Assembly (NCBI GenBank): GCA_963677895.2
Contig: CAXXGJ010000025.1
Span: 64,001-128,000 of the forward strand
Direction of reading: 5' to 3'
Length of the DNA: 64,000 nt
Source of the DNA: Treponemataceae bacterium
Lineage (GTDB): Bacteria > Spirochaetota > Spirochaetia > Treponematales > Rectinemataceae
Shown here: positions 5,401-15,126 of the stretch, in pieces
How positions within the stretch are numbered: the first letter of the stretch is position 1
Layout of the letters: the number at the start of each line of letters is the position of its first letter
Notes under the pieces: model-generated
What the model was told of the DNA's origin: nothing
What the model saw: the letters and a program-made list of their open reading frames with translations, nothing else
The model's database searches: none
Made by a program: the position numbers and the translations under genes

Positions 5401-5754
5401 GGTGATATAGACGATATCGGGCCGCCGTCCATCGGCCGGCAGGGAAAGGCTTCTCCATTCGTTTTCGCCATAAGGATAGAAGCCGAAGTAATCGGATTTT
5501 TCATTATAGAGCCGTCTGGAGCCCAGCTTCGCGATTTTCTCGTTTTTCAGCACCCAGAAAAATCCGGCGTGTTCACGGTAATCTGGATATGGAACGGTCT
5601 TGTCCACAGCCCATATGTTGAGTTCGCGCGATGGGGCGACCTGCCACAAGATGAAAGGAGACAGAACGAGGAGGACCATTCCGGCCGTGATCGCGACGAG
5701 GAGGATGCCCAGGATCATCATCGTGGAACGTTGACCGATTCCAGAACTCTTCAT
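2488..5754 (-). CDS. Membrane-anchored two-domain protein: uncharacterised N-terminal domain fused to a GH-A-clan (GH2-like TIM barrel) glycoside hydrolase
   Basis: N-terminal TM helix. C-terminal half has RGVNMG, NTVRIY, VGRELE (candidate acid/base Glu), YHIYPNYPDF, VAEFG (candidate nucleophile Glu) and FEWMDEW. ATGA overlap with the upstream GT2 gene. Confidence 0.7.
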   Translation of the reverse strand: MKSSGIGQRSTMMILGILLVAITAGMVLLVLSPFILWQVAPSRELNIWAVDKTVPYPDYREHAGFFWVLKNEKIAKLGSRRLYNEKSDYFGFYPYGENEWRSLSLPADGRRPDIVYITDTYGVYKDDYMQKKLAGEISSKLYGALTSEDIQTIRKNLGAGNTFMAEFNSAASPTNLKDRLTLGRLLGIQWKGWIGKYFEDLTAGKEVPAWVISNYAAQTGKQWSFFGRGYILISDEDHVEVLTEKDDLGKDGLKFSFRDPWAETLKSKKPISYRSWFEWTVPDSGSEIVADYNLDLTASGKAKLDSLGLPSAFPAILLYKNPQYSGWYFAGDFADLQAISTPYGMKGISWLKKLLIDDSVDSNAYFFWKAYVPLIRSILRDAEKAKAARTLIPNEQGEPKVDVRAFGKSFQLRDKDGSWKDFFVRGVNMGFAEPGMYFTNFPEDVGTYARWLEGIADMNANTVRIYTLPPPEFYKALFIHNTEHPDRTLYLLQEIWPEENPANGDYLAPEYRESFLKEIDYGIDAVYGRANVPDRKGRAWGIYTADVSKWLLGWLVGRELESEEVMETDAHNRNVAYTGKYVSAGPEATPTEVWLAESLDEVASIEAARYGRLHPVSIVSWPTLDPKEHDSEWDPATGKKNKGNDRASVTIDHFEITPAMTAGLFGAYHIYPNYPDFMNNETAYGSYKDEEGLLRYGGYLREFMESHGRYPALVAEFGLANGSGIAHFAPDGLHHGGLGETAAGEGILRMMDAIRKEGYAGGVIFEWMDEWVKKTWTTETLMIPYDRHVLWHNAVDPGQNYGLMANEVLTPERPDVAYKGNGIVDSMELSADASYLNITIKLKRAPDFAAEEILVGLDTLGRDLGQMLWPIGKMKTNSGLEFVLRLYAADKADLLVIPTYNAAMSRFATVRLSDGQFERISMLVNGAARTKDGRSIAEKRFDASALRRGPFDEAGNLWNIQGSTISLRLPWTYINVTDPSSRQVLQDSRTGYFNPERDALKTIATDGFLVDAVAWDKKQGKTTGGIELNPSYPYFWKVWEEAPPYREKLKKSYYIVRDAWAAEAAVERPVEAAVEWPVEAAVERPVRP
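2497..2568. repeat. 24-bp tandem repeat x3 encoding (EAAVE[R/W]PV)3
   Basis: gaccggccgctccacagcagcctc / gacaggccactccacagcagcctc / gacaggccgctccacagcggcttc at the extreme 3' end of the 1088-aa gene. Confidence 0.95.
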
Positions 5755-8700
5755 TTCTTGTCCTTGTCAGGCTGATTCCCGGTAGGCCCCTGGGCCGTGC
5801 CGGATGAGGAAAAGCCCTTTCTTTCCATCTTGCCCCAACCTTTCGGCTTTTTCATGGCGCTCAGGAAACCGAACACGCGCCACATCGAAAACAGCTGCCT
5901 GGGACCGAAATTCTCGATGAGGGCGATGGCGAGCATCTTCAGAGTATCCTTATACGAGAAATAATAGATCTGCCGCTCAGCGATCAGCACTGAAGCCATG
6001 GAAATGAGGATCCCCATGAAGACGGTCGAGAGGAAAAGAAGAATGGCGAGCTTGGCGCTTATCAAACCGAGAAGAGCCGCCAAGAAGACCATGAAATAGC
6101 CTTGAATCTCAAATAGCGGGCCGATCATCTCGAAAATAAGAAAATACGACATCCCGATCATGCCCATTTTTCCATAGCCGGGATTGAAAATCAGCTTTCT
6201 GTGGAAATACAGTATATCGATGAGCCCTCTATGCCATCTGTCCCTCTGCCGCTTCAGGACATCTATGCTTTCCGGAACCTCCGTCCAGCAGTTGGCGTTA
6301 TAGGCGTAGCTTATCCTGTATTTCTGCTTTTTTTCCCGCATATGCCTGGCCAGCCTCACGACGAGCTCCATGTCTTCTCCCACGGTATCCTTCCCGTACC
6401 TTTCGTTGCTGGTAAGATAGCCGCCTACGCTGACCACCCGCTCCTTCCGGAAAAGACCGAAGGCGCCGGAGATAATGAGAAGCGTATTGATCTGCGCCCA
6501 GCCGAGCCTGCCGCACATGAATGCCCTCAGATATTCGATGGTCTGCAGTTTGGCCAGGTTGTTGGCCGGAAGCGCTATGTGCGTGAGCTTTCCGCGGTCC
6601 ACGCCGCATCCGTTTATGGGGAACACGTTGCCGCCCATCGCGGGCGTCTCCACCCCGTAATCGAGGGTCATGGCGGCGACCTTCAGCAATGAATCGGGCT
6701 CGAGAAGCGAATCGGCGTCTATGCCGCAAAAATATTCCTTGGAAGCGATGTTGATGCCGGCGTTGAGCGAATCGGCTTTCCCGCCGTTGTCCTTGTCCAC
6801 GACGACGAGACGCGGGTAAAGAGGATTCAAATAGATTCCCCTCACCGAAGCCGTCTTCAGCCGCTGTGTGTAATAATAATCCGTCCGCTTGAGACCGTAA
6901 TGGGAAATGAGGCTGTTCAGCGTGCCGTCGCGAGATCCGTCGTTGACGACGACGAGCTCGTAGTCCGGATACTTGAGATTGAGCAGGGAACTCGTGCTCT
7001 CTATGATCGTCTTCTCTTCGTTGAAAGCCGGGGCGATGATGGAGACCGAAGGAAGTATGCGGGGCTTGAAAAGGAAGGACATCGTCTTGAGATTCCAGAG
7101 CCGGGTGGAAGATTTCACCTTCACGGTCGAGAGCAGGAGGAGAACGATATAGATCGCGTTGATCGTCATCGAATACCAGGCAAAGTTATAGTTTACGTCC
7201 ACGACGTAGGTTTTCAGCTGCACGAGCGGCGGGATGGAACCTATCTGGCTGCCATGGCTTAAAAAGTAAATAGCGGGAAAAAACAGAAGCGATCCGATCA
7301 ATATCATATAGAGCCGACGCACCATTTTCCAGTCCCGTTTTTCTTCGCGCTTTTTGACGGGAACCGTGATTCTCCGGAAACCGCATTTCTCGATGAGGCG
7401 ATCGGGAAGATAGAGTCCGCATTCCGTCCTCAGCCTTTCGCTTCCATCGGCTTCTTCGCGTATGATGGCGATTACGGCAGCCTCCAGAGCCTCATCCTTG
7501 TTCAGTTTCAAAAACTCGATGATCTCCGAAACCTTCCCGAGCCGGATGACCTCGCTTATGAGCCGGGCCGACTTTTCCTTCTCCTTCCCCGAGAGTTTGG
7601 TTATGAAATATTCGATCTTTCCAGCCAGGATTTCCGCCAGGCTCTGGACGATGTTCTCGTCGGTCGTTTCCTCGAAAGCTTCGACGACCGATGGAATGAG
7701 CCGCGGATGCTCCATGAGAATCCGCGAGAGGCCAATTTTCGCCGGTATCGCCGTCTGCTCATCTCCGAGATAGCGCAGCAATGTATCGATATTATCCTGG
7801 CTGTTTCCGTCGCCGAGGGAGCGCACCGCGATGGCGCGGATATCCTTGTCTTCATGTTCGAGGAACTCCGTGGAATTCAATACATCGCCATAGAATTTTT
7901 CGATGCACTCGGCCGCTTTCAGCATGAGCCTGTGATGGTTCTCCACGGGGTGTTGGCTCGTGACAAGGAGCTTGAAATGCCTGCAGTAAAAATCCGGCGA
8001 GACGCTGCCCTTGTATTTGCATTGTCTTCGCTGATCGTCGGCGATCGTCTGTCCATGCCTGCAGAAGGCGCAGCATTTTTCGGGACAGCCATGCACCAAA
8101 GCCGAAAGCCGGGCCATCTCGGCCTGCCCCCCGGAGAGCATCGCGACAAGATACTCCTTAAGGTCTTCAGAAATATAGGTGATGGATATATCCAGAAAGA
8201 GCTCGAGTATCTCGCTGTCTTCGCGCCAGAAATATCCGCGCAGATAATCTGAAGCCTCCGGACCGAAGGAAGCGATGAGGAGATTCACTTTATCGCGATA
8301 CCAGCGATGCGCGCCGATCAGGCTCTCTACGAGTACATTCAGGGACCGGGGATCCCCGATTTCGGCTAACGCGTTCGCTATGAACAGCTTGACGGGAAAT
8401 TCCTTTTCGACAAGAAGCGCTTTTTCGAGTGTCGCGCGGGCATCGTCGCTCCTGATCAAGGAAAGTCCCAGAGAGGCTTCCATCCGCTCGTAGCGGCTTT
8501 GATACCTGATTCTTCTCTTGAGGATGGACTCCAGCTTTTCCGACCTGGCCAGGCTGAGAATCCTGAGATGCTCCTTTTCGGGAAGCTGTATGGACTGCTT
8601 CAGCCGCAGGTAATTATCGAAAAGCCTGCTCACTCTTTTCTTGTCCCACTTGGTGCCTGTCTCGAAAAGATGGTTGAGTTGGGCGATTTCCCTTTGTCGC

Positions 8701-8816
8701 CGCTCGTCAGAAAGCGCAAGCCTGGACTTGTTGATCAGCGTCGTCAAAATGATGAAAATATCGAACCAAAGGAAAAAGATAACGGCGAGCAGTATGAATT
8801 CTATCTCGAGATTCAT
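5751..8816 (-). CDS. HEAT-repeat + processive family 2 glycosyltransferase (PgaC/IcaA/cellulose-synthase-like) fusion
   Basis: N-terminal TM and HEAT-like helices (ANALAEIGDPRSL; RAIAVRSLG). GT2 motifs PAFNEE, NDGSRD, GGKADSLNAG, DADS, GEDME and QRDRW (QxxRW), flanked by TM helices. Confidence 0.88.
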   Translation of the reverse strand: MNLEIEFILLAVIFFLWFDIFIILTTLINKSRLALSDERRQREIAQLNHLFETGTKWDKKRVSRLFDNYLRLKQSIQLPEKEHLRILSLARSEKLESILKRRIRYQSRYERMEASLGLSLIRSDDARATLEKALLVEKEFPVKLFIANALAEIGDPRSLNVLVESLIGAHRWYRDKVNLLIASFGPEASDYLRGYFWREDSEILELFLDISITYISEDLKEYLVAMLSGGQAEMARLSALVHGCPEKCCAFCRHGQTIADDQRRQCKYKGSVSPDFYCRHFKLLVTSQHPVENHHRLMLKAAECIEKFYGDVLNSTEFLEHEDKDIRAIAVRSLGDGNSQDNIDTLLRYLGDEQTAIPAKIGLSRILMEHPRLIPSVVEAFEETTDENIVQSLAEILAGKIEYFITKLSGKEKEKSARLISEVIRLGKVSEIIEFLKLNKDEALEAAVIAIIREEADGSERLRTECGLYLPDRLIEKCGFRRITVPVKKREEKRDWKMVRRLYMILIGSLLFFPAIYFLSHGSQIGSIPPLVQLKTYVVDVNYNFAWYSMTINAIYIVLLLLSTVKVKSSTRLWNLKTMSFLFKPRILPSVSIIAPAFNEEKTIIESTSSLLNLKYPDYELVVVNDGSRDGTLNSLISHYGLKRTDYYYTQRLKTASVRGIYLNPLYPRLVVVDKDNGGKADSLNAGINIASKEYFCGIDADSLLEPDSLLKVAAMTLDYGVETPAMGGNVFPINGCGVDRGKLTHIALPANNLAKLQTIEYLRAFMCGRLGWAQINTLLIISGAFGLFRKERVVSVGGYLTSNERYGKDTVGEDMELVVRLARHMREKKQKYRISYAYNANCWTEVPESIDVLKRQRDRWHRGLIDILYFHRKLIFNPGYGKMGMIGMSYFLIFEMIGPLFEIQGYFMVFLAALLGLISAKLAILLFLSTVFMGILISMASVLIAERQIYYFSYKDTLKMLAIALIENFGPRQLFSMWRVFGFLSAMKKPKGWGKMERKGFSSSGTAQGPTGNQPDKDKK

Positions 8817-10846
8817 CTCCCCGCCCCTGCCGATGTCATATTACGGACAATCCCCAGAAGTTCGGGGAGAAGATAAGGTTTTTTCAGATAATGGTCGATT
8901 CCCAATTTATACGCTCTGGAAACGGATTTTTCATCCTTTCGATGGGACATCAGTATGAAAGGAATATCCTTGGTTCCCGATTTCCTCGAAAGGGCTTCCT
9001 TGAGCATGAGGCCGTCGATCTTGGGAACCATGAGTTCCGAGATGATGAGATCGTAGCCTTCCTCGCTTATTTTTTTCAGGGCTTCGGCGCCGTCTTCGGC
9101 TACGGCGACGGAATAATCGGCATTCTCGAGAAATGTCCTGATGACGCCCGCGTTTACGGCATCGTCGTCGATGATCAAAATTTTCGCCTTGGATTCGACC
9201 TCCGTCCCGACCTCGGACGACGAACATATGGTATCGCCGCCGCGCCGCCGCGCCCAACGCAAACGCCTCAAGCCGATCTCGTAGAGCGAAGCCCCGGCCT
9301 CGGCGGAATCCATGATCGACGACCTGATTTCGGCTATCGCGACGAGGCCGATGGATATGGTGACCGGCTCTATGAAGGACCTGGAGATCTCGACATTCTT
9401 CCTAATTTGCTCGCAGAGATCATTCGCTTCATGGAAGACGATGCGCGGCATCCAGATCGCGAAGGTCGCCCCATGCAGGCGGAAAACAGGCTGGCTCGCT
9501 GTCTTGTGTTCGAGCATGATCCTGGTAACGCCCTTGAGGACAGCCTCCACTTCGCGCGGGCCGTATTGATATTCGATTGTGGAAATAGTGTCATCGATGC
9601 CGATAACGGCCAGGACATCGTCTTCCATCCCTTCCGCGTTCAGCGAAAGCGAGGCTTGCTCGTCGATGAAATTTCGGAAGAAAGCTTCGTTGTATAGTCC
9701 GGTGGTGGTGTCCCGCAGCTGGGATTCGTTCGCTTGGCCGTAAGCCTGCATGAGCTGTTCGTTCAGCTGCCTGAGTCTGGCGACTTCCTGCCCAAGCTCT
9801 TCGAAATTCCGCTCCGATTCCTTCAGGATGGATGCGTATATCCCGGGACGCTTTATGCCGAATTCCTCGCAGAGTTTGGCCACGAAAGGTTCCAGCAGGG
9901 TCAGAGCGGAATGGCCCTGCACCAGATAAATAGTGTCGGCGAGCCTGTTCCACAGGTCCAAGCCCATCGGCGCTGCGTTGACGATGGCGCCGGTCTCAGG
10001 GTCCAATTCAAGCCCAAGCTTGAGGGCAACCGTATCGGCAAACTTCCGGCCATAAACGGCGGAAAAACGCGCCAAAAGCTGCTTGGACGGCTCAAGGGAC
10101 TCACTGGAATCGCCCAGGTTTTTTTTGGGGAAACCCAGCAAAGTGCCGCATTCCAGGGTTCTCAGCGCGTCGATATACGTCTTGATGTCGCGATTGATGA
10201 TCGATCCATGCTGGGGAAGAATGGCGGCGAGTTCGAGACAGGAGAAGATTTCCATTACCGGTCCCAATATTTCGTGGGAGGGCATGTAATGTTCATGGAA
10301 GGTTTTCATCCCATCCAAATAGTCTTTCCCCGCATAGAGCGACCACTCGGGCGTAAAAGCGCCGAAAAGGTCGCTGGAAAGAAGTAATTTAGCCTGTCTA
10401 TCGTAGGTCGCGATCGCGCCGGGAAAATGAAGATAAGCCGTCGGTATGAAGCGCAGCGCTCTCCCCGAGGCAAGGGTGAGAAGATACCCATGCTCATCCA
10501 CCAAGTAGACGGGCGATTGGATCCCATAGAAACGAACAAGCGTCCAGGTTCTCCAGTGCGTTACGATGGTGAAGCGCATTCCGAGCGCCTCTAGGTGAGG
10601 CACCGCCGAAGCGAGATCGGGATCCTGATGGGACAGCACTACATATTTGACTTTTTCGAGCGGTATTATGGAGGCGATATTGGCCGCCACCTCCCCGACA
10701 TCGAGGACCGATCCAGGGTCGAACAGGACGGCTTCTTCTCCCTCGACGAGCAAATAGGGATTGCACTGAAGACTATCGGTTGCGGCCCGGGCGCCGACCC
10801 AGTAATAGCCTGACCCAAGGGATTCGCCCCCGCTTCCTGACGCCAT
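8813..10846 (-). CDS. ODP-like metallo-beta-lactamase di-iron sensor + degenerate GGDEF + pseudo-receiver protein
   Basis: SHQDPDL, LHFPG, SSDLFG, FHEHYMPS and PQHG ligand motifs. DTTTGLYN opens the GGDEF-like domain, whose signature is replaced by HGATF. REC domain has IIDDD and KKP, but Glu at the phospho-acceptor position (IISELMVP). CAGGAG RBS before ATG 10846. Confidence 0.82.
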   Translation of the reverse strand: MASGSGGESLGSGYYWVGARAATDSLQCNPYLLVEGEEAVLFDPGSVLDVGEVAANIASIIPLEKVKYVVLSHQDPDLASAVPHLEALGMRFTIVTHWRTWTLVRFYGIQSPVYLVDEHGYLLTLASGRALRFIPTAYLHFPGAIATYDRQAKLLLSSDLFGAFTPEWSLYAGKDYLDGMKTFHEHYMPSHEILGPVMEIFSCLELAAILPQHGSIINRDIKTYIDALRTLECGTLLGFPKKNLGDSSESLEPSKQLLARFSAVYGRKFADTVALKLGLELDPETGAIVNAAPMGLDLWNRLADTIYLVQGHSALTLLEPFVAKLCEEFGIKRPGIYASILKESERNFEELGQEVARLRQLNEQLMQAYGQANESQLRDTTTGLYNEAFFRNFIDEQASLSLNAEGMEDDVLAVIGIDDTISTIEYQYGPREVEAVLKGVTRIMLEHKTASQPVFRLHGATFAIWMPRIVFHEANDLCEQIRKNVEISRSFIEPVTISIGLVAIAEIRSSIMDSAEAGASLYEIGLRRLRWARRRGGDTICSSSEVGTEVESKAKILIIDDDAVNAGVIRTFLENADYSVAVAEDGAEALKKISEEGYDLIISELMVPKIDGLMLKEALSRKSGTKDIPFILMSHRKDEKSVSRAYKLGIDHYLKKPYLLPELLGIVRNMTSAGAGR

Positions 10847-10994
10847 CGCGTACTCCTGCCCTACTGATGTTATAGTTTGGCTCAATTCACGGCATAACAC
10901 CGCTATCCCGTGATAATACAGCGTTCAACTTCAATAATAATGCATAATGATACGCTTAGTAAGGCTTTTTACTGTTTGTCCCTGCATATTTCAT

Positions 10995-11023
10995 TTGACA
11001 GCAAAAAAGGGCAAGGGTATGCT
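10995..11023 (+). promoter_or_regulatory. Sigma70-type promoter of cstA
   Basis: TTGACA (10995-11000), 17-bp spacer, TATGCT (11018-11023); AGGAGG RBS at 11041-11046. Confidence 0.75.
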
Positions 11024-11051
11024 ACTTTATCCGTTTTTGCAGGAGGACTGC

Positions 11052-12752
11052 ATGAGTACTATCATTGCCTTGGCCGCGATCGCAATCTATGTCGTTTTCT
11101 ACTTCACCTACGGCAAAAAGATCCGCGACAACGTGCTCAAGAGCGAAAAAGCCCCCGAGGCCCCATCGAAGAGGCTATCGGATGGCGTCGACTACGTTCC
11201 GACGTCCAAGTACGTCCTGTTCGGCCATCACTTCGCCTCGATAGCCGGAGCGGGACCGATCACCGGCCCGGCTATGGCCGTGGCTTGGGGCTGGCTCCCC
11301 GGCTTGCTGTGGATCTGGTTCGGCAACATCTTCCTTGGCGCCATCCACGACTACCTCTCGCTCGTGGCCTCCGTCCGTTATGACGGTCGCTCGATGCAGT
11401 TCGTAGCCCAGGATGTGATCGGGAAGAAAGCCGGCAAGACCTTCAGCTGGTTCATTCTCTTCCTCACCATCCTCGTCGTGGCGGCTTTCGGCGACATCGT
11501 CGCGGGACAGTTCGCCGCTGACGGACGCGTATTCTTCTCCTTCGTCTTCTTCTGCGTAGCGGCCTTCGTCGCCGGCTTCGCCATGTACAGATCCAAGCTG
11601 GGCTTGGGAAAGGGCACACTGATCGGCCTCGCCCTCATCATCGTGGCCTTTTTCTGCGGAAACCTGCTCCCCGTAAAGTGGGCTAAGGATGTCTACTTTC
11701 TCATCATCTTCGTCTACATCGTCCTCGCGTCGACCTTGCCGGTCAACCTGCTTCTGCAGCCGCGCGACTACCTCTCCTCTTTCTTCCTCTATTTCGGCCT
11801 CATCGTCGGCGGTTACGCCGCTATCTCGAGCGGCAAAGCCCTGGACGCCATCCCGGCCTTCACGACCTTCAGCGCCAAGCTGATCGGCCCCGCCGGCAAC
11901 CTCCAGCCCTCGCCCTTCTGGCCCTGCGTGCCGCTCATCATAGCCTGCGGCGCCCTTTCTGGATTCCATTCTCTCGTGGCGGCCGGAACCTCTTCCAAGC
12001 AGCTTAGAGAGGAAAAAGACGCTCTCTTTGTCGGTTATGGCGCCATGCTCGTAGAAGGCTTCCTCGCCACCCTCGTCCTGATTTCTATCGCCGGATGGGG
12101 CGTCCTCGCGATGGGCGACAAGGTGATGGCCACGCCTGCCCTTGGCCGCTTCGTCAATTCCTTCGCCAAGATGGTCAGCATGCAGATTCCCTTCATGGGC
12201 GAAAGCTTCATGAGACTTTTCGCCGCGGTCTGGGTATCCACCTTCGCACTCACGACTCTCGACACGACGAACCGCCTCGGCCGCTACATCATGCAGGAAA
12301 TGGCCGAACCCTTGAAGGACAAGAGCCCAGTAATCTACGGCATCTTCCACAACAAGTGGGTAGCCTCCATACTCATCGCCTTCATCGGCCTCTTCCTCGC
12401 GCGCTCCGGCGGCTACACGGTCATATGGCCGGCATTCTCCGGCGCCAACCAGCTTCTGGCCTCGGTCGCCATGCTCACTGTCGCCATCTGGGTCAACAAG
12501 AAGCTCAACGCGAAGTTCGTCCTCGCGACGGTGCTTCCCGCCCTGCTGCTCTGGGTGACCGTCGTCTGCGCCCTTGTCTGGTATGAAATCGTGATCATCC
12601 CCGTATTCTTCATCGATATGGCCAAAACCATGAACGTCATCACCGGCACTGTGGTCGGCGTCATGAACCTTTTGATGATCATCCTCTCCTTCGTGATGCT
12701 GTTCGCGTTCAGGAAACAGTGGAACGCGAAAAACGCGATGGAAAAAGCCTGA
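11052..12752 (+). CDS. cstA: Carbon starvation protein A family transporter (peptide/pyruvate)
   Basis: DGVDYVPTSKYVLFGHHFASIAGAGPI, LLQPRDY, IACGALSGFHSLV, TTLDT and WPAFSGANQLLA motifs; many TM segments. Confidence 0.95.
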   Translation: MSTIIALAAIAIYVVFYFTYGKKIRDNVLKSEKAPEAPSKRLSDGVDYVPTSKYVLFGHHFASIAGAGPITGPAMAVAWGWLPGLLWIWFGNIFLGAIHDYLSLVASVRYDGRSMQFVAQDVIGKKAGKTFSWFILFLTILVVAAFGDIVAGQFAADGRVFFSFVFFCVAAFVAGFAMYRSKLGLGKGTLIGLALIIVAFFCGNLLPVKWAKDVYFLIIFVYIVLASTLPVNLLLQPRDYLSSFFLYFGLIVGGYAAISSGKALDAIPAFTTFSAKLIGPAGNLQPSPFWPCVPLIIACGALSGFHSLVAAGTSSKQLREEKDALFVGYGAMLVEGFLATLVLISIAGWGVLAMGDKVMATPALGRFVNSFAKMVSMQIPFMGESFMRLFAAVWVSTFALTTLDTTNRLGRYIMQEMAEPLKDKSPVIYGIFHNKWVASILIAFIGLFLARSGGYTVIWPAFSGANQLLASVAMLTVAIWVNKKLNAKFVLATVLPALLLWVTVVCALVWYEIVIIPVFFIDMAKTMNVITGTVVGVMNLLMIILSFVMLFAFRKQWNAKNAMEKA

Positions 12753-12830
12753 CCGATTAATTCGGGTCTGGCGGCGCGTTCATGACGCCTCGCGTCGAAG
12801 ACGCGCCGCCGGATAAGTCAGCCAAAGTCC

Positions 12831-12862
12831 AGCCGGACGGCATCGAGCCGTCCGGCTTTTTT
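12831..12862 (+). terminator. Intrinsic terminator after cstA
   Basis: agccggacggc-atcga-gccgtccggct stem-loop followed by a T run. Confidence 0.8.
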
Positions 12863-12886
12863 ACGGATACGGAGATTTGCGCAAGC

Positions 12887-12915
12887 TTGCTGATAAAAGT
12901 CCGCGGTAGTATAGT
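12887..12915 (+). promoter_or_regulatory. Candidate promoter for the ArsA/Get3 module
   Basis: TTGCTG, 17-bp spacer, TATAGT immediately after the cstA terminator. Confidence 0.5.
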
Positions 12916-12972
12916 CATGGGTGTTCCCGAAGGAACGGGCGGTCAAAGATACTAATTTTCAAGGGAGTCGAG

Positions 12973-13254
12973 ATGCCTCAAAGTATCGGACATATCATCA
13001 AATCGGCAATCCATATCGCCACCCAGATAAACCGAGAAAGGGCAACCGGCCTTATCGAATTCGAAGAAAAGGAACTCGAGAATATTTTCGCGCTCCTTAT
13101 CCTAGGCGGTTTCGCGGGGCTTCCCTCCCCCCCCTCCCCGATAGCCATCGAACTGCTTCCCTATATGGAAAAAGAGCTCATAATGCTGCTATCGCGAACC
13201 GATCTGGCACAGGATCCCATCGGGGTTCTCGCCGGCATGTTCGAGATGGGCTAA
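12973..13254 (+). CDS. Small CstA/ArsA-associated protein (cory-CC-star-like)
   Basis: 93 aa with ELENIFALLILGGFAGLPSP...IELLPY, resembling (from memory) small proteins encoded between cstA and arsA-like genes; AGGGAG RBS. Confidence 0.65.
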   Translation: MPQSIGHIIKSAIHIATQINRERATGLIEFEEKELENIFALLILGGFAGLPSPPSPIAIELLPYMEKELIMLLSRTDLAQDPIGVLAGMFEMG

Positions 13255-13267
13255 GGTAGGAGCCATC

Positions 13268-14215
13268 ATGAACAGCACGGCTTTTTTCCTGGGCAAGGGC
13301 GGAGTAGGCAAGACCACCCTTTCGAGCGCCTTTGCCCTCACGCTCGCCAGACGAGGCGCTAAAGTGCTCATCGCCTCGCTCGACCCGGCGCACAATCTGG
13401 GCGACGCCCTCGACATAAGCCTGAACGGCAACGTCAAGACGGTCGAGCCTAACTTGGACGCCCTCGAGGTCGATCTCGCCTATTGGGTGGACAAATACCT
13501 CGACGACAGCCGCAAACAGCTGAAAGCCAATTATTCCTACAATGTCACGCTGAACCTGGACTCTTTCTTCAACATCCTGAAGTATTCGCCCGGCACTGAG
13601 GAATACGCCGTGCTTTGGGCGATTGAGGATATCCACTGCAGGCTTGGCCCTCTCTACGACATCGTCGTCTTCGATACGCCGCCCACGGCCCTCTCCCTGC
13701 GCTTTCTCTCCCTGCCCACGATTTCGGGGCTCTGGGTCAAGGAACTGAGCAAGCTGAGAGAAAAAATCCTCGCGAAACGGCAGACGATCACCCGCCTCAA
13801 TCCCGAATCCCCCGTCGCCGCGAGCTGCGTCGACAAGGATGACGACAAGGTATACGGACAGCTCAACACTATCGGGGCAAGACTCCGAAAACTGGAGCAC
13901 CTCTTCGCCAAGGAAAGTTTCCTCAGCGTCATCGTTAACCCGGACCAGCTCTCGGTCGATGAAGCCTTGCGGATCCAGGATGAACTGACCAAGTTGGGTA
14001 TTCCGCTATCGGCGGTCTGCGTCAACAAGCAGGGCGTGTCCGATATGATATGGGAGCAGAATCCCTCCCTTGCCCGATATCCGCAGTTCATCTACGATTT
14101 TTCGCGCGGAGGCATTTCGACGAGGGAGAACCTCCTCACTATCGGCGCCGGACCTATCGCGGATCACTTCCTGAAAACCGTTCAAAATCCAACAACCGAG
14201 AGGAAGAAAAAGTAA
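13268..14215 (+). CDS. Single-domain ArsA/Get3 (TRC40) family ATPase
   Basis: Deviant Walker A GKGGVGKTT, switch I DPAHNL, switch II DTPPT; 315 aa equals one ATPase domain. Confidence 0.92.
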   Translation: MNSTAFFLGKGGVGKTTLSSAFALTLARRGAKVLIASLDPAHNLGDALDISLNGNVKTVEPNLDALEVDLAYWVDKYLDDSRKQLKANYSYNVTLNLDSFFNILKYSPGTEEYAVLWAIEDIHCRLGPLYDIVVFDTPPTALSLRFLSLPTISGLWVKELSKLREKILAKRQTITRLNPESPVAASCVDKDDDKVYGQLNTIGARLRKLEHLFAKESFLSVIVNPDQLSVDEALRIQDELTKLGIPLSAVCVNKQGVSDMIWEQNPSLARYPQFIYDFSRGGISTRENLLTIGAGPIADHFLKTVQNPTTERKKK

Positions 14216-14841
14216 TGGAAACGACATATTTGATTCCGCTTCTGCTTCTGGGCATCGCCGGCAGCACACAGTATTTCCTGGGTTCCAAGAAAAACAGATG
14301 GCTCGGGAAGCAAATGTCCATCCAGGCCGAAAACGTCTTCAAACCCAGGGATACGGAGTACGTCAATATCGGGGGCGTGATAGGCCACAACTTCATATAC
14401 AAGCTCCGCGATCCCTGGAAAGAAGCCAAGGGATCGTTCATCTTCATCCCCAGACATTCTCTCCTCTACGTTCCCTTTTCTTACCTCATCGGCAGCCGCG
14501 ACCGTTTCCTCTTCAACCTTTTCACGGACAAGAAACTGGCGGGAGAAGGCCATATCGTGGAGAAGAGCCATCTCAGGCGCACGAAGATCGACGGCATAGC
14601 GCAGATGGAACGCGAGGAAATTGAATGCGGAGGCAAGACCTTCGTTCTCCTCTGGCGAGATGCCGCCATGCTTGCCGCCTTGAAAAGGACCCTTGAGGCC
14701 ATGCCCGATCCCGCGACGCTCGCGCATTTCTGCTGTTACGACGACAATAAAACTTTTTTCCTGTATCTGAAGCCCCGCAAGGGAGCGATCGAGGCGAATC
14801 TTAAAAAATTCCTGGAACTCTGCCCCGAGTATTTCCGATAA
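14215..14841 (+). CDS. Membrane-anchored hypothetical protein (possible CCDC47/DUF1682-like)
   Basis: TAATG overlap with the ATPase stop; N-terminal TM followed by YFLGSKKNRWL and FIPRHSLLY motifs. The family resemblance is judged by eye only. Confidence 0.7.
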   Translation: METTYLIPLLLLGIAGSTQYFLGSKKNRWLGKQMSIQAENVFKPRDTEYVNIGGVIGHNFIYKLRDPWKEAKGSFIFIPRHSLLYVPFSYLIGSRDRFLFNLFTDKKLAGEGHIVEKSHLRRTKIDGIAQMEREEIECGGKTFVLLWRDAAMLAALKRTLEAMPDPATLAHFCCYDDNKTFFLYLKPRKGAIEANLKKFLELCPEYFR

Positions 14842-14853
14842 AAGGAGGCCGCG

Positions 14854-15126
14854 ATGGATCCCGAGATCAGAAAGAGAGTGGACGCGGTTCTCGCGAGGGT
14901 AAAAGAGCCGCAGTCCGACCTGCCCATCGTCGATTTAGGGCTGGTGTACAATGTCCGCTACAGTGAAAAGGAAAAAAGCATAGAACTGACACTCGCCATT
15001 GGGTATGCGGCGGGACACTGTCCAGCTTGCGTGGCTATTAATGGGGTCGTGGGCGCGGGGATAGCGCGCCGAGCCCTAGAGGAATTCCAGAAAGAATTCC
15101 CGGGATTTTCCATCGTAGTCGACTAA
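14854..15126 (+). CDS. DUF59 / FeS-assembly-P (metal-sulfur cluster biosynthesis) domain protein
   Basis: LARVKEPQSDLPIVDLGLVYNV motif followed by CPAC; AGGAGG RBS. Confidence 0.8.
   Translation: MDPEIRKRVDAVLARVKEPQSDLPIVDLGLVYNVRYSEKEKSIELTLAIGYAAGHCPACVAINGVVGAGIARRALEEFQKEFPGFSIVVD

What the first reader, a model, noticed from the sequence alone, without database searches (positions are those of the whole stretch)
11052..15126. cstA + small protein + Get3/ArsA ATPase + CCDC47-like protein + DUF59: possible dedicated membrane-protein biogenesis or transport-energising system
Seen: five co-oriented genes, the last four tightly packed (13-bp gap, 1-bp overlap, 12-bp gap). The ATPase has a single domain, and no arsR/B/C/D or acr3 is present, so arsenic resistance is unlikely. 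Known: ArsA homologues encoded beside cstA have been noted before without a demonstrated function. Eukaryotic Get3/TRC40 chaperones TM helices, and the PAT complex (CCDC47 + Asterix) chaperones multipass membrane proteins. Inference: the module either inserts or folds the large multipass CstA (a prokaryotic GET/PAT-like kit) or converts CstA into an ATP-driven importer.
Basis: partly seen in the sequence, partly recalled or inferred. Interest (0 to 1): 0.85.

Follow-up and report, generated by a model that had tools for sequence, protein, structure and literature searches.

The report
CstA transporter with four dedicated helpers
A spirochaete nutrient-transporter gene is followed by four helper genes shared with archaea, one predicted to fold like the eukaryotic membrane-protein factor CCDC47; four of the five were described in 2010, and the helpers likely assemble or switch on the transporter rather than power it.

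Summary
The five genes, gaps and overlap are real. Four form the cstA-cstX-arsA-cstY cluster of Castillo and Saier (2010), untested as far as my searches show; this scan has already reported it from other genomes. Added here: (1) the 208-aa CstY model matches CCDC47's membrane helix and globular domain (Z 18.0, 206 of 208 residues, rmsd 2.9) but stops before the ribosome-binding latch; its next match is TtfA, an accessory subunit of a mycobacterial transporter. (2) DUF59 is a regular fifth gene (67 of 72 loci in the order; 30 of 30 Thermococcales loci, there without CxxC). (3) All 73 genomes with this CstA clade carry the ATPase, whereas other CstAs lack the kit. (4) CstX and the ATPase travel as a pair, while CstY can persist without them. 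(5) A terminator and a conserved promoter-like site separate cstA from the helpers. The ATPase has intact catalytic motifs and a Get3-type insert, but no groove methionines, no CxxC and no arsenic partners. Best reading (0.45): an ATP-using kit that assembles or switches one ion-driven carrier. Direct ATP-powered transport (0.2) and a GET/PAT-like insertion pathway (0.15) remain open.

The parts
10995..11023 (+). sigma-70-like promoter candidate for cstA (TTGACA-17-TATGCT, 10 of 12)
   Evidence: consensus match only
11052..12752 (+). cstA, 566-aa CstA-family multipass carrier of the kit-bearing clade
   Evidence: PF02554 E 9.8e-125; clade with Thermococcus and Thermodesulfobacteriota kit-bearing CstAs, SH-aLRT 100
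12766..12814 (+). strong RNA hairpin just after the cstA stop (role unknown)
   Evidence: -38.4 kcal/mol, z -5.6
12831..12865 (+). intrinsic-terminator-like hairpin plus T run between cstA and cstX
   Evidence: z -6.3; similar hairpins in 24 of 30 family loci versus 0.8 expected
12887..12915 (+). predicted internal promoter for the four helper genes (TTGCTG-17-TATAGT)
   Evidence: matching site in 24 of 30 family loci versus 2.9 expected, mostly about 60 nt before cstX; below the threshold of the scan
12973..13254 (+). cstX, 93-aa helical protein (DUF7990/PF25952): 13-residue hydrophobic stretch, Pro-rich turn, acidic flanks; no Cys
13268..14215 (+). single-domain Get3/ArsA-family ATPase with P-loop, switch I and variant switch II (DTPPT), Get3-type insert, no Met in helices 4-9, no CxxC
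14215..14841 (+). cstY, 208-aa N-anchored protein predicted to have the fold of CCDC47's TM helix plus globular domain (also TtfA-like), without the C-terminal latch
14854..15126 (+). 90-aa DUF59 (FeS_assembly_P) protein with CPAC motif; regular fifth member of the cluster

Best explanation
The locus encodes a CstA-family carrier and four dedicated helpers that likely assemble or switch on that one carrier, which likely still runs on an ion gradient. Shown here: the gene set, its co-inheritance with one CstA clade, the ATPase motifs and the predicted folds. Inferred steps: (1) the ATPase dimer would grip the short hydrophobic hairpin of CstX in its Get3-type groove and use ATP to load CstX onto, or strip it from, CstA; (2) CstX would act as the small activating partner, as YbdD does for E. 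coli CstA; (3) CstY would sit on the cytoplasmic face of CstA as a TtfA-like stabilising subunit, independent of the ribosome; (4) DUF59 would be an adaptor for the ATPase, with a thiol or metal input only in lineages that have CxxC. The substrate is likely a monocarboxylate or peptide, by family precedent only.
For: All 73 genomes with a CstA at 60% identity or more carry the ATPase (73 of 251 searched); 19 of 20 fetched lower-identity CstA loci had no kit gene in the stretch fetched. CstX lies beside the ATPase in 71 of 72 order loci, 79 of 80 CstX-found loci (my count), 30 of 30 Thermococcales and 14 of 14 single-ATPase loci in the phylum of G523. CstY is found where CstX and the ATPase were not: in three 93-96% complete genomes whose CstA falls inside the kit clade, and divergently beside cstA in four others (CstX was searched genome-wide in two of these four). 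CstY's match ends at CCDC47 residue 395 (368 in the fungal chain), before the latch. TtfA, Z 9.8, is an N-anchored protein whose first 205 residues bind and are required for MmpL3 (passages). E. coli CstA needs the small YbdD, and its paralogue BtsT is an H+ symporter (passages). Yeast Get3 takes monotopic hairpin clients (abstract and outline). A separate promoter-like site for the helpers fits non-stoichiometric use. YidC is present elsewhere in the genome.
Against: CstX is unrelated in sequence to YbdD as far as Pfam shows, so its role is an analogy. The losses of CstX and the ATPase rest on a few related, incomplete genomes, and three of those CstAs carry a ~120-aa insert that could replace the lost parts. 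W156 and R164 of the groove helix also occur in an archaeal Get3, and methionines are not required for tail-anchor binding, so a general chaperone role is not excluded. In Thermococcales cstA and cstX are closely spaced, so split transcription is lineage-specific. The CstA tree was the quick version, midpoint-rooted, with a long-branch warning.
Confidence: 0.45

Rival explanations
1. The ATPase powers the transport stroke through CstX, turning CstA into an ATP-driven importer in the manner of ArsA on ArsB (proposal of Castillo and Saier 2010).
For: Strict co-occurrence of this CstA clade with the ATPase (73 of 73); catalytic motifs intact in all single-ATPase groups; co-evolution reported in PMC2963123; closest enzyme precedent ArsAB.
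Against: Kit-clade CstAs exist in genomes where the ATPase was not found. The T-[TS]-L-D-T motif, which I recall as the ion-coupling helix motif of related symporters, is the same with and without the ATPase. A terminator lies between cstA and the helpers in 43 of 67 order loci. In a same-genus genome a kit-less CstA occupies the same chromosomal address.
Confidence: 0.2
2. A prokaryotic GET/PAT-like pathway: the ATPase shields nascent CstA helices, and CstY with CstX acts as a CCDC47-Asterix-like chaperone at the translocon.
For: CstY matches CCDC47 over 206 of 208 residues; 41 of 118 CstY relatives hit Pfam CCDC47 at E up to 0.1, best 2.8e-6 (my count); the ATPase has the Get3 insert and a hydrophobic stripe on helix 7; CstX is of similar size to Asterix (~10 kDa).
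Against: CstY has no latch or coiled coil (median C-terminal extension 2 residues in 126 relatives), the part that reaches the exit tunnel. In PAT the client binder is Asterix; CstX has one 13-residue hydrophobic stretch. CstY and the ATPase occur apart. Other CstA clades lack the kit. The groove has no Met versus 8 and 5 in two archaeal Get3s (hand count), and K170/R171 replace hydrophobic residues.
Confidence: 0.15
3. The ATPase and DUF59 form a split Mrp/HCF101-like unit that delivers a metal or senses thiol state for CstA.
For: DUF59 is fused to P-loop NTPases in HCF101 (passage); CxxC in 77 of 83 aligned DUF59 rows, mostly spirochaete; unrelated Cys-Cys or Cys-Sec small proteins sit beside E. 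coli and Campylobacter-type CstAs (passage); spirochaete ATPases share Cys124, Cys187 and Cys251.
Against: None of 30 Thermococcales DUF59 proteins has CxxC and their ATPases have a median of 0 Cys; DUF59 is missing from 11 of 14 single-ATPase loci in the phylum of G523 within 1.5 kb; no Fe-S enzyme is a conserved neighbour.
Confidence: 0.12
4. Arsenic resistance ATPase that happens to lie next to cstA.
For: Pfam ArsA_ATPase E 5.5e-47.
Against: Single domain; TIGR04291 76 bits versus cut-off 650; no Cys at the helix-6 metal site; no Acr3 or ArsD and no convincing ArsB in the genome; linkage to cstA conserved from spirochaetes to Thermococcales.
Confidence: 0.02

Closest known systems
cstA-cstX-arsA-homologue-cstY clusters, ArsA cluster 14 (Castillo and Saier 2010, PMC2963123; passages and sections 3.2 and 3.12 read)
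   Same: Same four genes and sizes (~90-aa CstX, ~330-aa single-domain ATPase, ~210-aa single-TM CstY), no ars genes; Thermococcus loci fall in the same profile and CstA clade.
   Different: They saw CstY only in five archaea; here it is bacterial and widespread. DUF59, CCDC47 and Get3 do not occur in their main text. No internal terminator or promoter was seen in the passages read. They favoured ATP-energised transport.
CCDC47 of the PAT complex / multipass translocon (7TM3, 7TUT, 6W6L, 9I78)
   Same: TM helix plus globular domain superpose over nearly the whole of CstY (Z 18.0, rmsd 2.9; Foldseek E 1.4e-9); weak profile similarity at the G-x-x-x-N motif after the TM helix and beyond.
   Different: No lumenal N-terminal region, no C-terminal latch or coiled coil, 10-12% identity, no Asterix identified, and encoded beside one transporter rather than serving many clients.
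TtfA-MmpL3 of mycobacteria (PMC6593404, passages read; 6T84)
   Same: N-terminal TM anchor with a ~200-residue cytoplasmic domain of related fold (Z 9.8, 148 aligned, rmsd 3.9) acting as a required accessory of one multipass transporter.
   Different: Different transporter superfamily and substrate; weaker structural match than CCDC47; no ATPase partner in the passages read.
Get3/TRC40 and archaeal homologues (3UG6, 3ZQ6; PMC6593721, first three of five parts read)
   Same: Single SIMIBI domain, P-loop, switch I, Get3-type insert, hydrophobic stripe on helix 7.
   Different: Switch II is DTPPT(A/G)L; no Met in helices 4-9 of this protein; no CxxC; shortened C-terminal part with a degenerate A-loop in spirochaetes.
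E. coli CstA-YbdD and BtsT (PMC5847655, passages read)
   Same: CstA-family carrier that needs a small neighbouring protein.
   Different: YbdD is a DUF466 protein ending in Cys-Cys, not DUF7990; this CstA scores far below the E. coli-type equivalog cut-off (222 vs 1188 bits), so its substrate is not assigned.

Membership tests
cstA-cstX-arsA-cstY cluster (Castillo and Saier 2010) | cstA with ~90-aa CstX and single-domain ~330-aa ArsA homologue, no ars genes | tested here: met
cstA-cstX-arsA-cstY cluster (Castillo and Saier 2010) | ~210-aa single-TM CstY as in archaeal clusters | tested here: met
   208 aa; family N-terminal hydropathy at TM level in 117 of 122 rows, though the window's own peak is 1.39; Thermococcus homologue E 5.5e-71
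cstA-cstX-arsA-cstY cluster (Castillo and Saier 2010) | direct sequence match to the proteins listed in that paper | not tested
   their tables and supplements were not read; identity rests on size, context and Thermococcus homologues
Arsenical pump ATPase ArsA | two tandem ATPase domains (~590 aa) | tested here: not met
   315 aa; TIGR04291 76 vs 650 bits
Arsenical pump ATPase ArsA | metal-binding Cys before helix 6 | tested here: not met
   KYSPGTEEY aligns where ArsA has its Cys; the other two Cys were not mapped
Arsenical pump ATPase ArsA | ArsB, Acr3 or ArsD partner | tested here: not met
   genome 92.8% complete
Arsenical pump ATPase ArsA | arsenite-stimulated ATPase | not testable with these tools
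   needs a bench assay
Get3/TRC40 tail-anchor targeting ATPase | P-loop, switch I and switch II | tested here: met
   GKGGVGKTT, SLDPAHN, variant DTPPT; TIGR00345 above cut-off
Get3/TRC40 tail-anchor targeting ATPase | TRC40 insert | tested here: met
   region 150-212 aligns at full length to 3UG6 and 3ZQ6
Get3/TRC40 tail-anchor targeting ATPase | methionine-rich hydrophobic groove | tested here: not met
   0 Met in residues 70-212, median 2 in 59 spirochaete rows; fungi have at least 4. A hydrophobic stripe remains
Get3/TRC40 tail-anchor targeting ATPase | zinc-binding CxxC dimer motif | tested here: not met
   0 of 59, 0 of 30 and 0 of 15 rows
Get3/TRC40 tail-anchor targeting ATPase | binds TM helices and delivers them to a Get1/Get2 receptor | not testable with these tools
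   needs a bench assay; Get1/Get2 were not searched
CCDC47 / PAT complex | TM helix plus cytosolic globular domain of CCDC47 fold | tested here: met
   Z 18.0 and 15.8, 206 and 204 aligned; Foldseek E 1.4e-9; on a predicted model of pLDDT 94
CCDC47 / PAT complex | Pfam PF07946 gathering score | tested here: not met
   0 of 118 relatives pass; best 27.1 vs 27.7 bits; window protein no hit
CCDC47 / PAT complex | C-terminal latch helices or coiled coil reaching the ribosome exit | tested here: not met
   alignment ends at 395 / 368 and the protein ends there
CCDC47 / PAT complex | Asterix partner | tested here: inconclusive
   CstX model (pTM 0.58) gave only generic single-helix matches
TtfA-type transporter accessory | N-terminal TM anchor with related ~200-aa cytoplasmic fold | tested here: met
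   Z 9.8, rmsd 3.9, 148 aligned; topology
TtfA-type transporter accessory | stable binding to, and requirement for, its transporter | not testable with these tools
   needs pull-down and deletion
DUF59 Fe-S maturation proteins (SufT, PaaD) | PF01883 domain | tested here: met
   26.4 vs 23.5 bits
DUF59 Fe-S maturation proteins (SufT, PaaD) | SUF-associated, SufT or PaaD family score | tested here: not met
   24 vs 143, 18.5 vs 203, 30 vs 180 bits

The most novel reading that the evidence does not exclude
CstY is a true prokaryotic homologue of CCDC47, and the CstX-ATPase-CstY-DUF59 kit is a single-client ancestor of eukaryotic membrane-protein biogenesis: a Get3-like ATPase and a latch-less CCDC47 that mature one transporter, from which eukaryotes built the general PAT complex by adding the ribosome latch and Asterix.
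Probability: 0.2. Interest if true: 0.85.

Novelty: new variant of a known kind. Interest (0 to 1): 0.52.

Why it matters
What bacterial and archaeal Get3-like ATPases do outside arsenic resistance is an open question, and this cluster gives one of them fixed partners to test. I found no paper linking CstY to CCDC47, or CCDC47 to TtfA (open-access library only, subscription papers missing). If the fold match is homology, CCDC47's core predates eukaryotes as a transporter-bound accessory, and the ribosome latch is a later addition. The cluster is present in 74 of 101 genomes sampled around a Thermococcus, so it can be tested in a laboratory archaeon.

Tried and rejected
Complex prediction of CstA + CstX + CstY with CstY scored: no answer (score 0.00, controls not folded); it is no evidence either way, and the ATPase-CstX pair was not folded because only one job was allowed. 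Sequencing runs: no RNA holder listed, so transcription was not checked and no reads were laid. CstX fold searches: no Foldseek match at E 0.001 and only generic helix matches at Z under 6; Asterix was not listed. Sequence searches of solved structures with CstA, the CstY profiles A1 and A3, and P0251 found nothing useful, so the CCDC47 link rests on fold plus weak Pfam hits. CstX versus CstY profile comparison: unrelated (probability 1.5%). Collection scans with the CstY alignments failed for lack of a conserved stretch; the CstX scan kept the best 80 of 244 hits, nearly all spirochaete. Six of 78 ATPase-positive genomes were left out of the 72-locus count (G359, G382, G385, G417, G429, mostly at contig ends; G487, fetched later, has CstX and the ATPase without CstY nearby). 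A hairpin after DUF59 is not better than shuffles (z -1.2). My hydropathy scan found only 10 segments in CstA and none in CstX or CstY at 1.6, so it is too crude for topology. The careful CstA tree did not finish; the quick tree was used. An early idea that DUF59 is a local add-on (2 of 8 operons, counting the window) was rejected. An idea that DUF59's CxxC is essential was rejected by the Thermococcales sequences. The promoter pattern was first seen by eye, so its test threshold was chosen afterwards; shuffles kept base composition only and the loci are kin.

Full report
Observation. cstA is followed by a 220-bp gap; the other four genes are packed with a 13-bp gap, a 1-bp overlap and a 12-bp gap. 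Family scans give CstA (PF02554), a single-domain GET3/ArsA ATPase above the TIGR00345 cut-off, and a DUF59 protein. The 93-aa protein is DUF7990/PF25952. The 208-aa protein has no Pfam hit. Named close relatives are Rectinemataceae and other spirochaetes.

What is already known. Castillo and Saier 2010 (PMC2963123; passages and two sections read) found 26 cstA-arsA-homologue clusters, 24 with a ~90-aa CstX and five archaeal ones with a ~210-aa CstY. They proposed that CstX couples CstA transport to ATP hydrolysis. Their main text does not mention DUF59, CCDC47 or Get3; I did not read their supplements. A search for ArsA with CstA listed 8 papers, only this one on topic; Get3 with CstA listed none on topic. 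Earlier notes of this scan report the same cluster and the CCDC47 likeness in at least 31 other genomes; I consulted them after my own fold result.

Conservation. In 251 genomes of the order, 78 have the ATPase and 73 have a CstA at 60% identity or more. All 73 have the ATPase. Of the other five ATPase genomes, two pair it with a more distant CstA and three have it partial or near a contig end. In 72 fetched loci, CstX was found in 71, CstY in 71 and DUF59 in 67. In 101 genomes sampled around a Thermococcus record, 74 have the ATPase, and all 30 loci examined read cstA-cstX-ATPase-DUF59-cstY. In the phylum of G523, 14 of 251 genomes have the single-ATPase type; all 14 loci show CstA and CstX, 11 CstY and 3 DUF59 within 1.5 kb. 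Kin are not independent, so these counts show linkage, not a statistic.

CstY. The AlphaFold model is confident (pLDDT 94, pTM 0.87). Foldseek's three hits at E under 0.001 are chains of multipass-translocon structures (7tm3_4 E 1.4e-9, TM 0.72). The wide search gives Z 18.0 with 206 of 208 residues aligned at rmsd 2.9, then 9i78_4 at Z 15.8, TtfA at Z 9.8, and the rest at 6.2 or less. I identify these chains as CCDC47 from the residue range, which equals the 76-370 block named in the 9I78 paper, and from Pfam: 41 of 118 relatives hit PF07946 at E up to 0.1, none above cut-off. The match stops where CCDC47's latch helices start, and CstY proteins end there. The latch and coiled coil are what reach the ribosome exit and Sec61; the globular domain also touches the ribosome, so ribosome contact is not excluded. 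In PAT the client binder is Asterix. TtfA is an N-anchored protein whose first 205 residues bind MmpL3 and are needed for transport. Searches for CCDC47 with archaea, TtfA or prokaryotic homologues gave no paper making these links in the listings or in the three papers whose passages I read.

The ATPase. P-loop, switch I and a variant switch II (DTPPT) are conserved in all single-ATPase groups. The Get3-type insert is present at full length. The helical region has no Met in this protein, against 8 and 5 in the aligned part of two archaeal Get3s (hand count). W156, L160, I167 and I174 keep a hydrophobic stripe, and R171 is 96-100% conserved where those Get3s have Met or Ala. There is no CxxC. 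A review cautions that neither the insert nor Met content decides tail-anchor function (PMC6593721). Arsenic resistance is unlikely.

CstX and DUF59. CstX is three helices with a 13-residue hydrophobic stretch, a Pro-rich turn and acidic flanks, which suggests a membrane-dipping hairpin rather than a full TM helix (inference). DUF59 has CxxC in 77 of 83 aligned rows (window counted twice) but in none of 30 Thermococcales proteins, so any thiol function is lineage-specific.

Separable sub-modules. The quick CstA tree (46 rows) has a clade of 19 (support 100) with 16 kit-bearing CstAs from spirochaetes, Thermococcus, Thermoplasmata and Thermodesulfobacteriota, plus three CstAs with a ~120-aa insert. 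Those three genomes (93-96% complete) have CstY elsewhere, but neither CstX nor the ATPase was found. A second clade joins four CstX+ATPase loci with four loci where cstY is divergent from cstA and the ATPase was not found. Nineteen other CstAs had no kit gene nearby. So CstX and the ATPase behave as a pair, and CstY follows CstA more than the ATPase. A same-genus genome has a kit-less CstA at the same chromosomal address.

Transcription signals. A terminator-like hairpin follows cstA. In the window's family, 24 of 30 loci have such a hairpin (0.8 expected) and 24 of 30 a TTG-16/18-TAxxxT site, mostly about 60 nt before cstX (2.9 expected). In the other families, 19 of 37 have the hairpin and 2 of 37 the site (2.1 expected). 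These are predictions; five of the 72 loci lacked one of the two genes and were not scored.

Mechanism. I commit to an ATP-using assembly or switching kit for one ion-driven carrier (0.45): the ATPase handles CstX, CstX activates CstA as YbdD does in E. coli, CstY stabilises CstA like TtfA, and DUF59 adapts or regulates the ATPase, by analogy with DUF59-NTPase fusions such as HCF101. All four steps are inferred. Rivals are direct ATP-powered transport (0.2), a GET/PAT-like co-translational pathway (0.15), metal or thiol handling (0.12) and arsenic resistance (0.02).

Verdict. A real and widely conserved system, known as a gene cluster since 2010 and apparently untested. It works like a transporter-accessory kit; it is not a member of the arsenical ArsA family, and it fails defining tests for Get3 targeting factors and for PAT. 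The CCDC47 fold of CstY, the fifth gene and the split transcription are additions to the 2010 description. Interest 0.52.

Noticed in passing
L303:869-4873 (G371, same genus) versus window 8813-12752: Beside the same ODP-GGDEF and glycosyltransferase genes (76-78% identical), G371 has a kit-less CstA (35% identity) in the opposite orientation, suggesting one CstA type replaced the other at this address.
   Followed up: partly
L274:1315-3396, L275:1321-3396, L276:517-2592: CstAs of ~690 aa in the kit clade carry a ~120-aa insert with no Pfam match; their genomes have an unlinked cstY near a clpC-like gene, and no CstX or ATPase was found.
   Followed up: partly
L290:4312-4755, L104:2072-2533, L245:2698-3144: In a second CstA clade a ~150-aa hydrophobic protein with no convincing Pfam match sits between cstA and cstX, in loci where cstY was not seen; it may replace CstY.
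   Followed up: partly
L026:6983-7294, L027:5872-6222: A ~103-aa conserved gene without Pfam match lies between divergent cstA and cstY in genomes where the ATPase was not found.
   Followed up: no
L234-L244: Eleven loci have twin ATPases with complementary altered motifs (switch II DLVPLGH with SVDPQAS; switch I STNPVHS), beside CstX and often cstA.
   Followed up: partly
L186, L198-L201, L203, L204, L207, L208, L212-L214: 12 of 30 Thermococcales loci have two cstX paralogues with one ATPase.
   Followed up: no
protein P0269 (323 aa): C-terminal part of an ArsA-type ATPase fused to CstY; may be a sequencing artefact.
   Followed up: no
window 5751-10900, - strand: ODP-GGDEF-receiver gene and a HEAT-repeat glycosyltransferase-2 gene, divergent from cstA; the largest cluster of upstream neighbours (14 loci) resembles the ODP gene.
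   Followed up: no
window 14215-14841: After CCDC47 and TtfA, several of the next structural neighbours of CstY are type III secretion chaperones (Z 4-6.4), within the range of chance arrangement.
   Followed up: no
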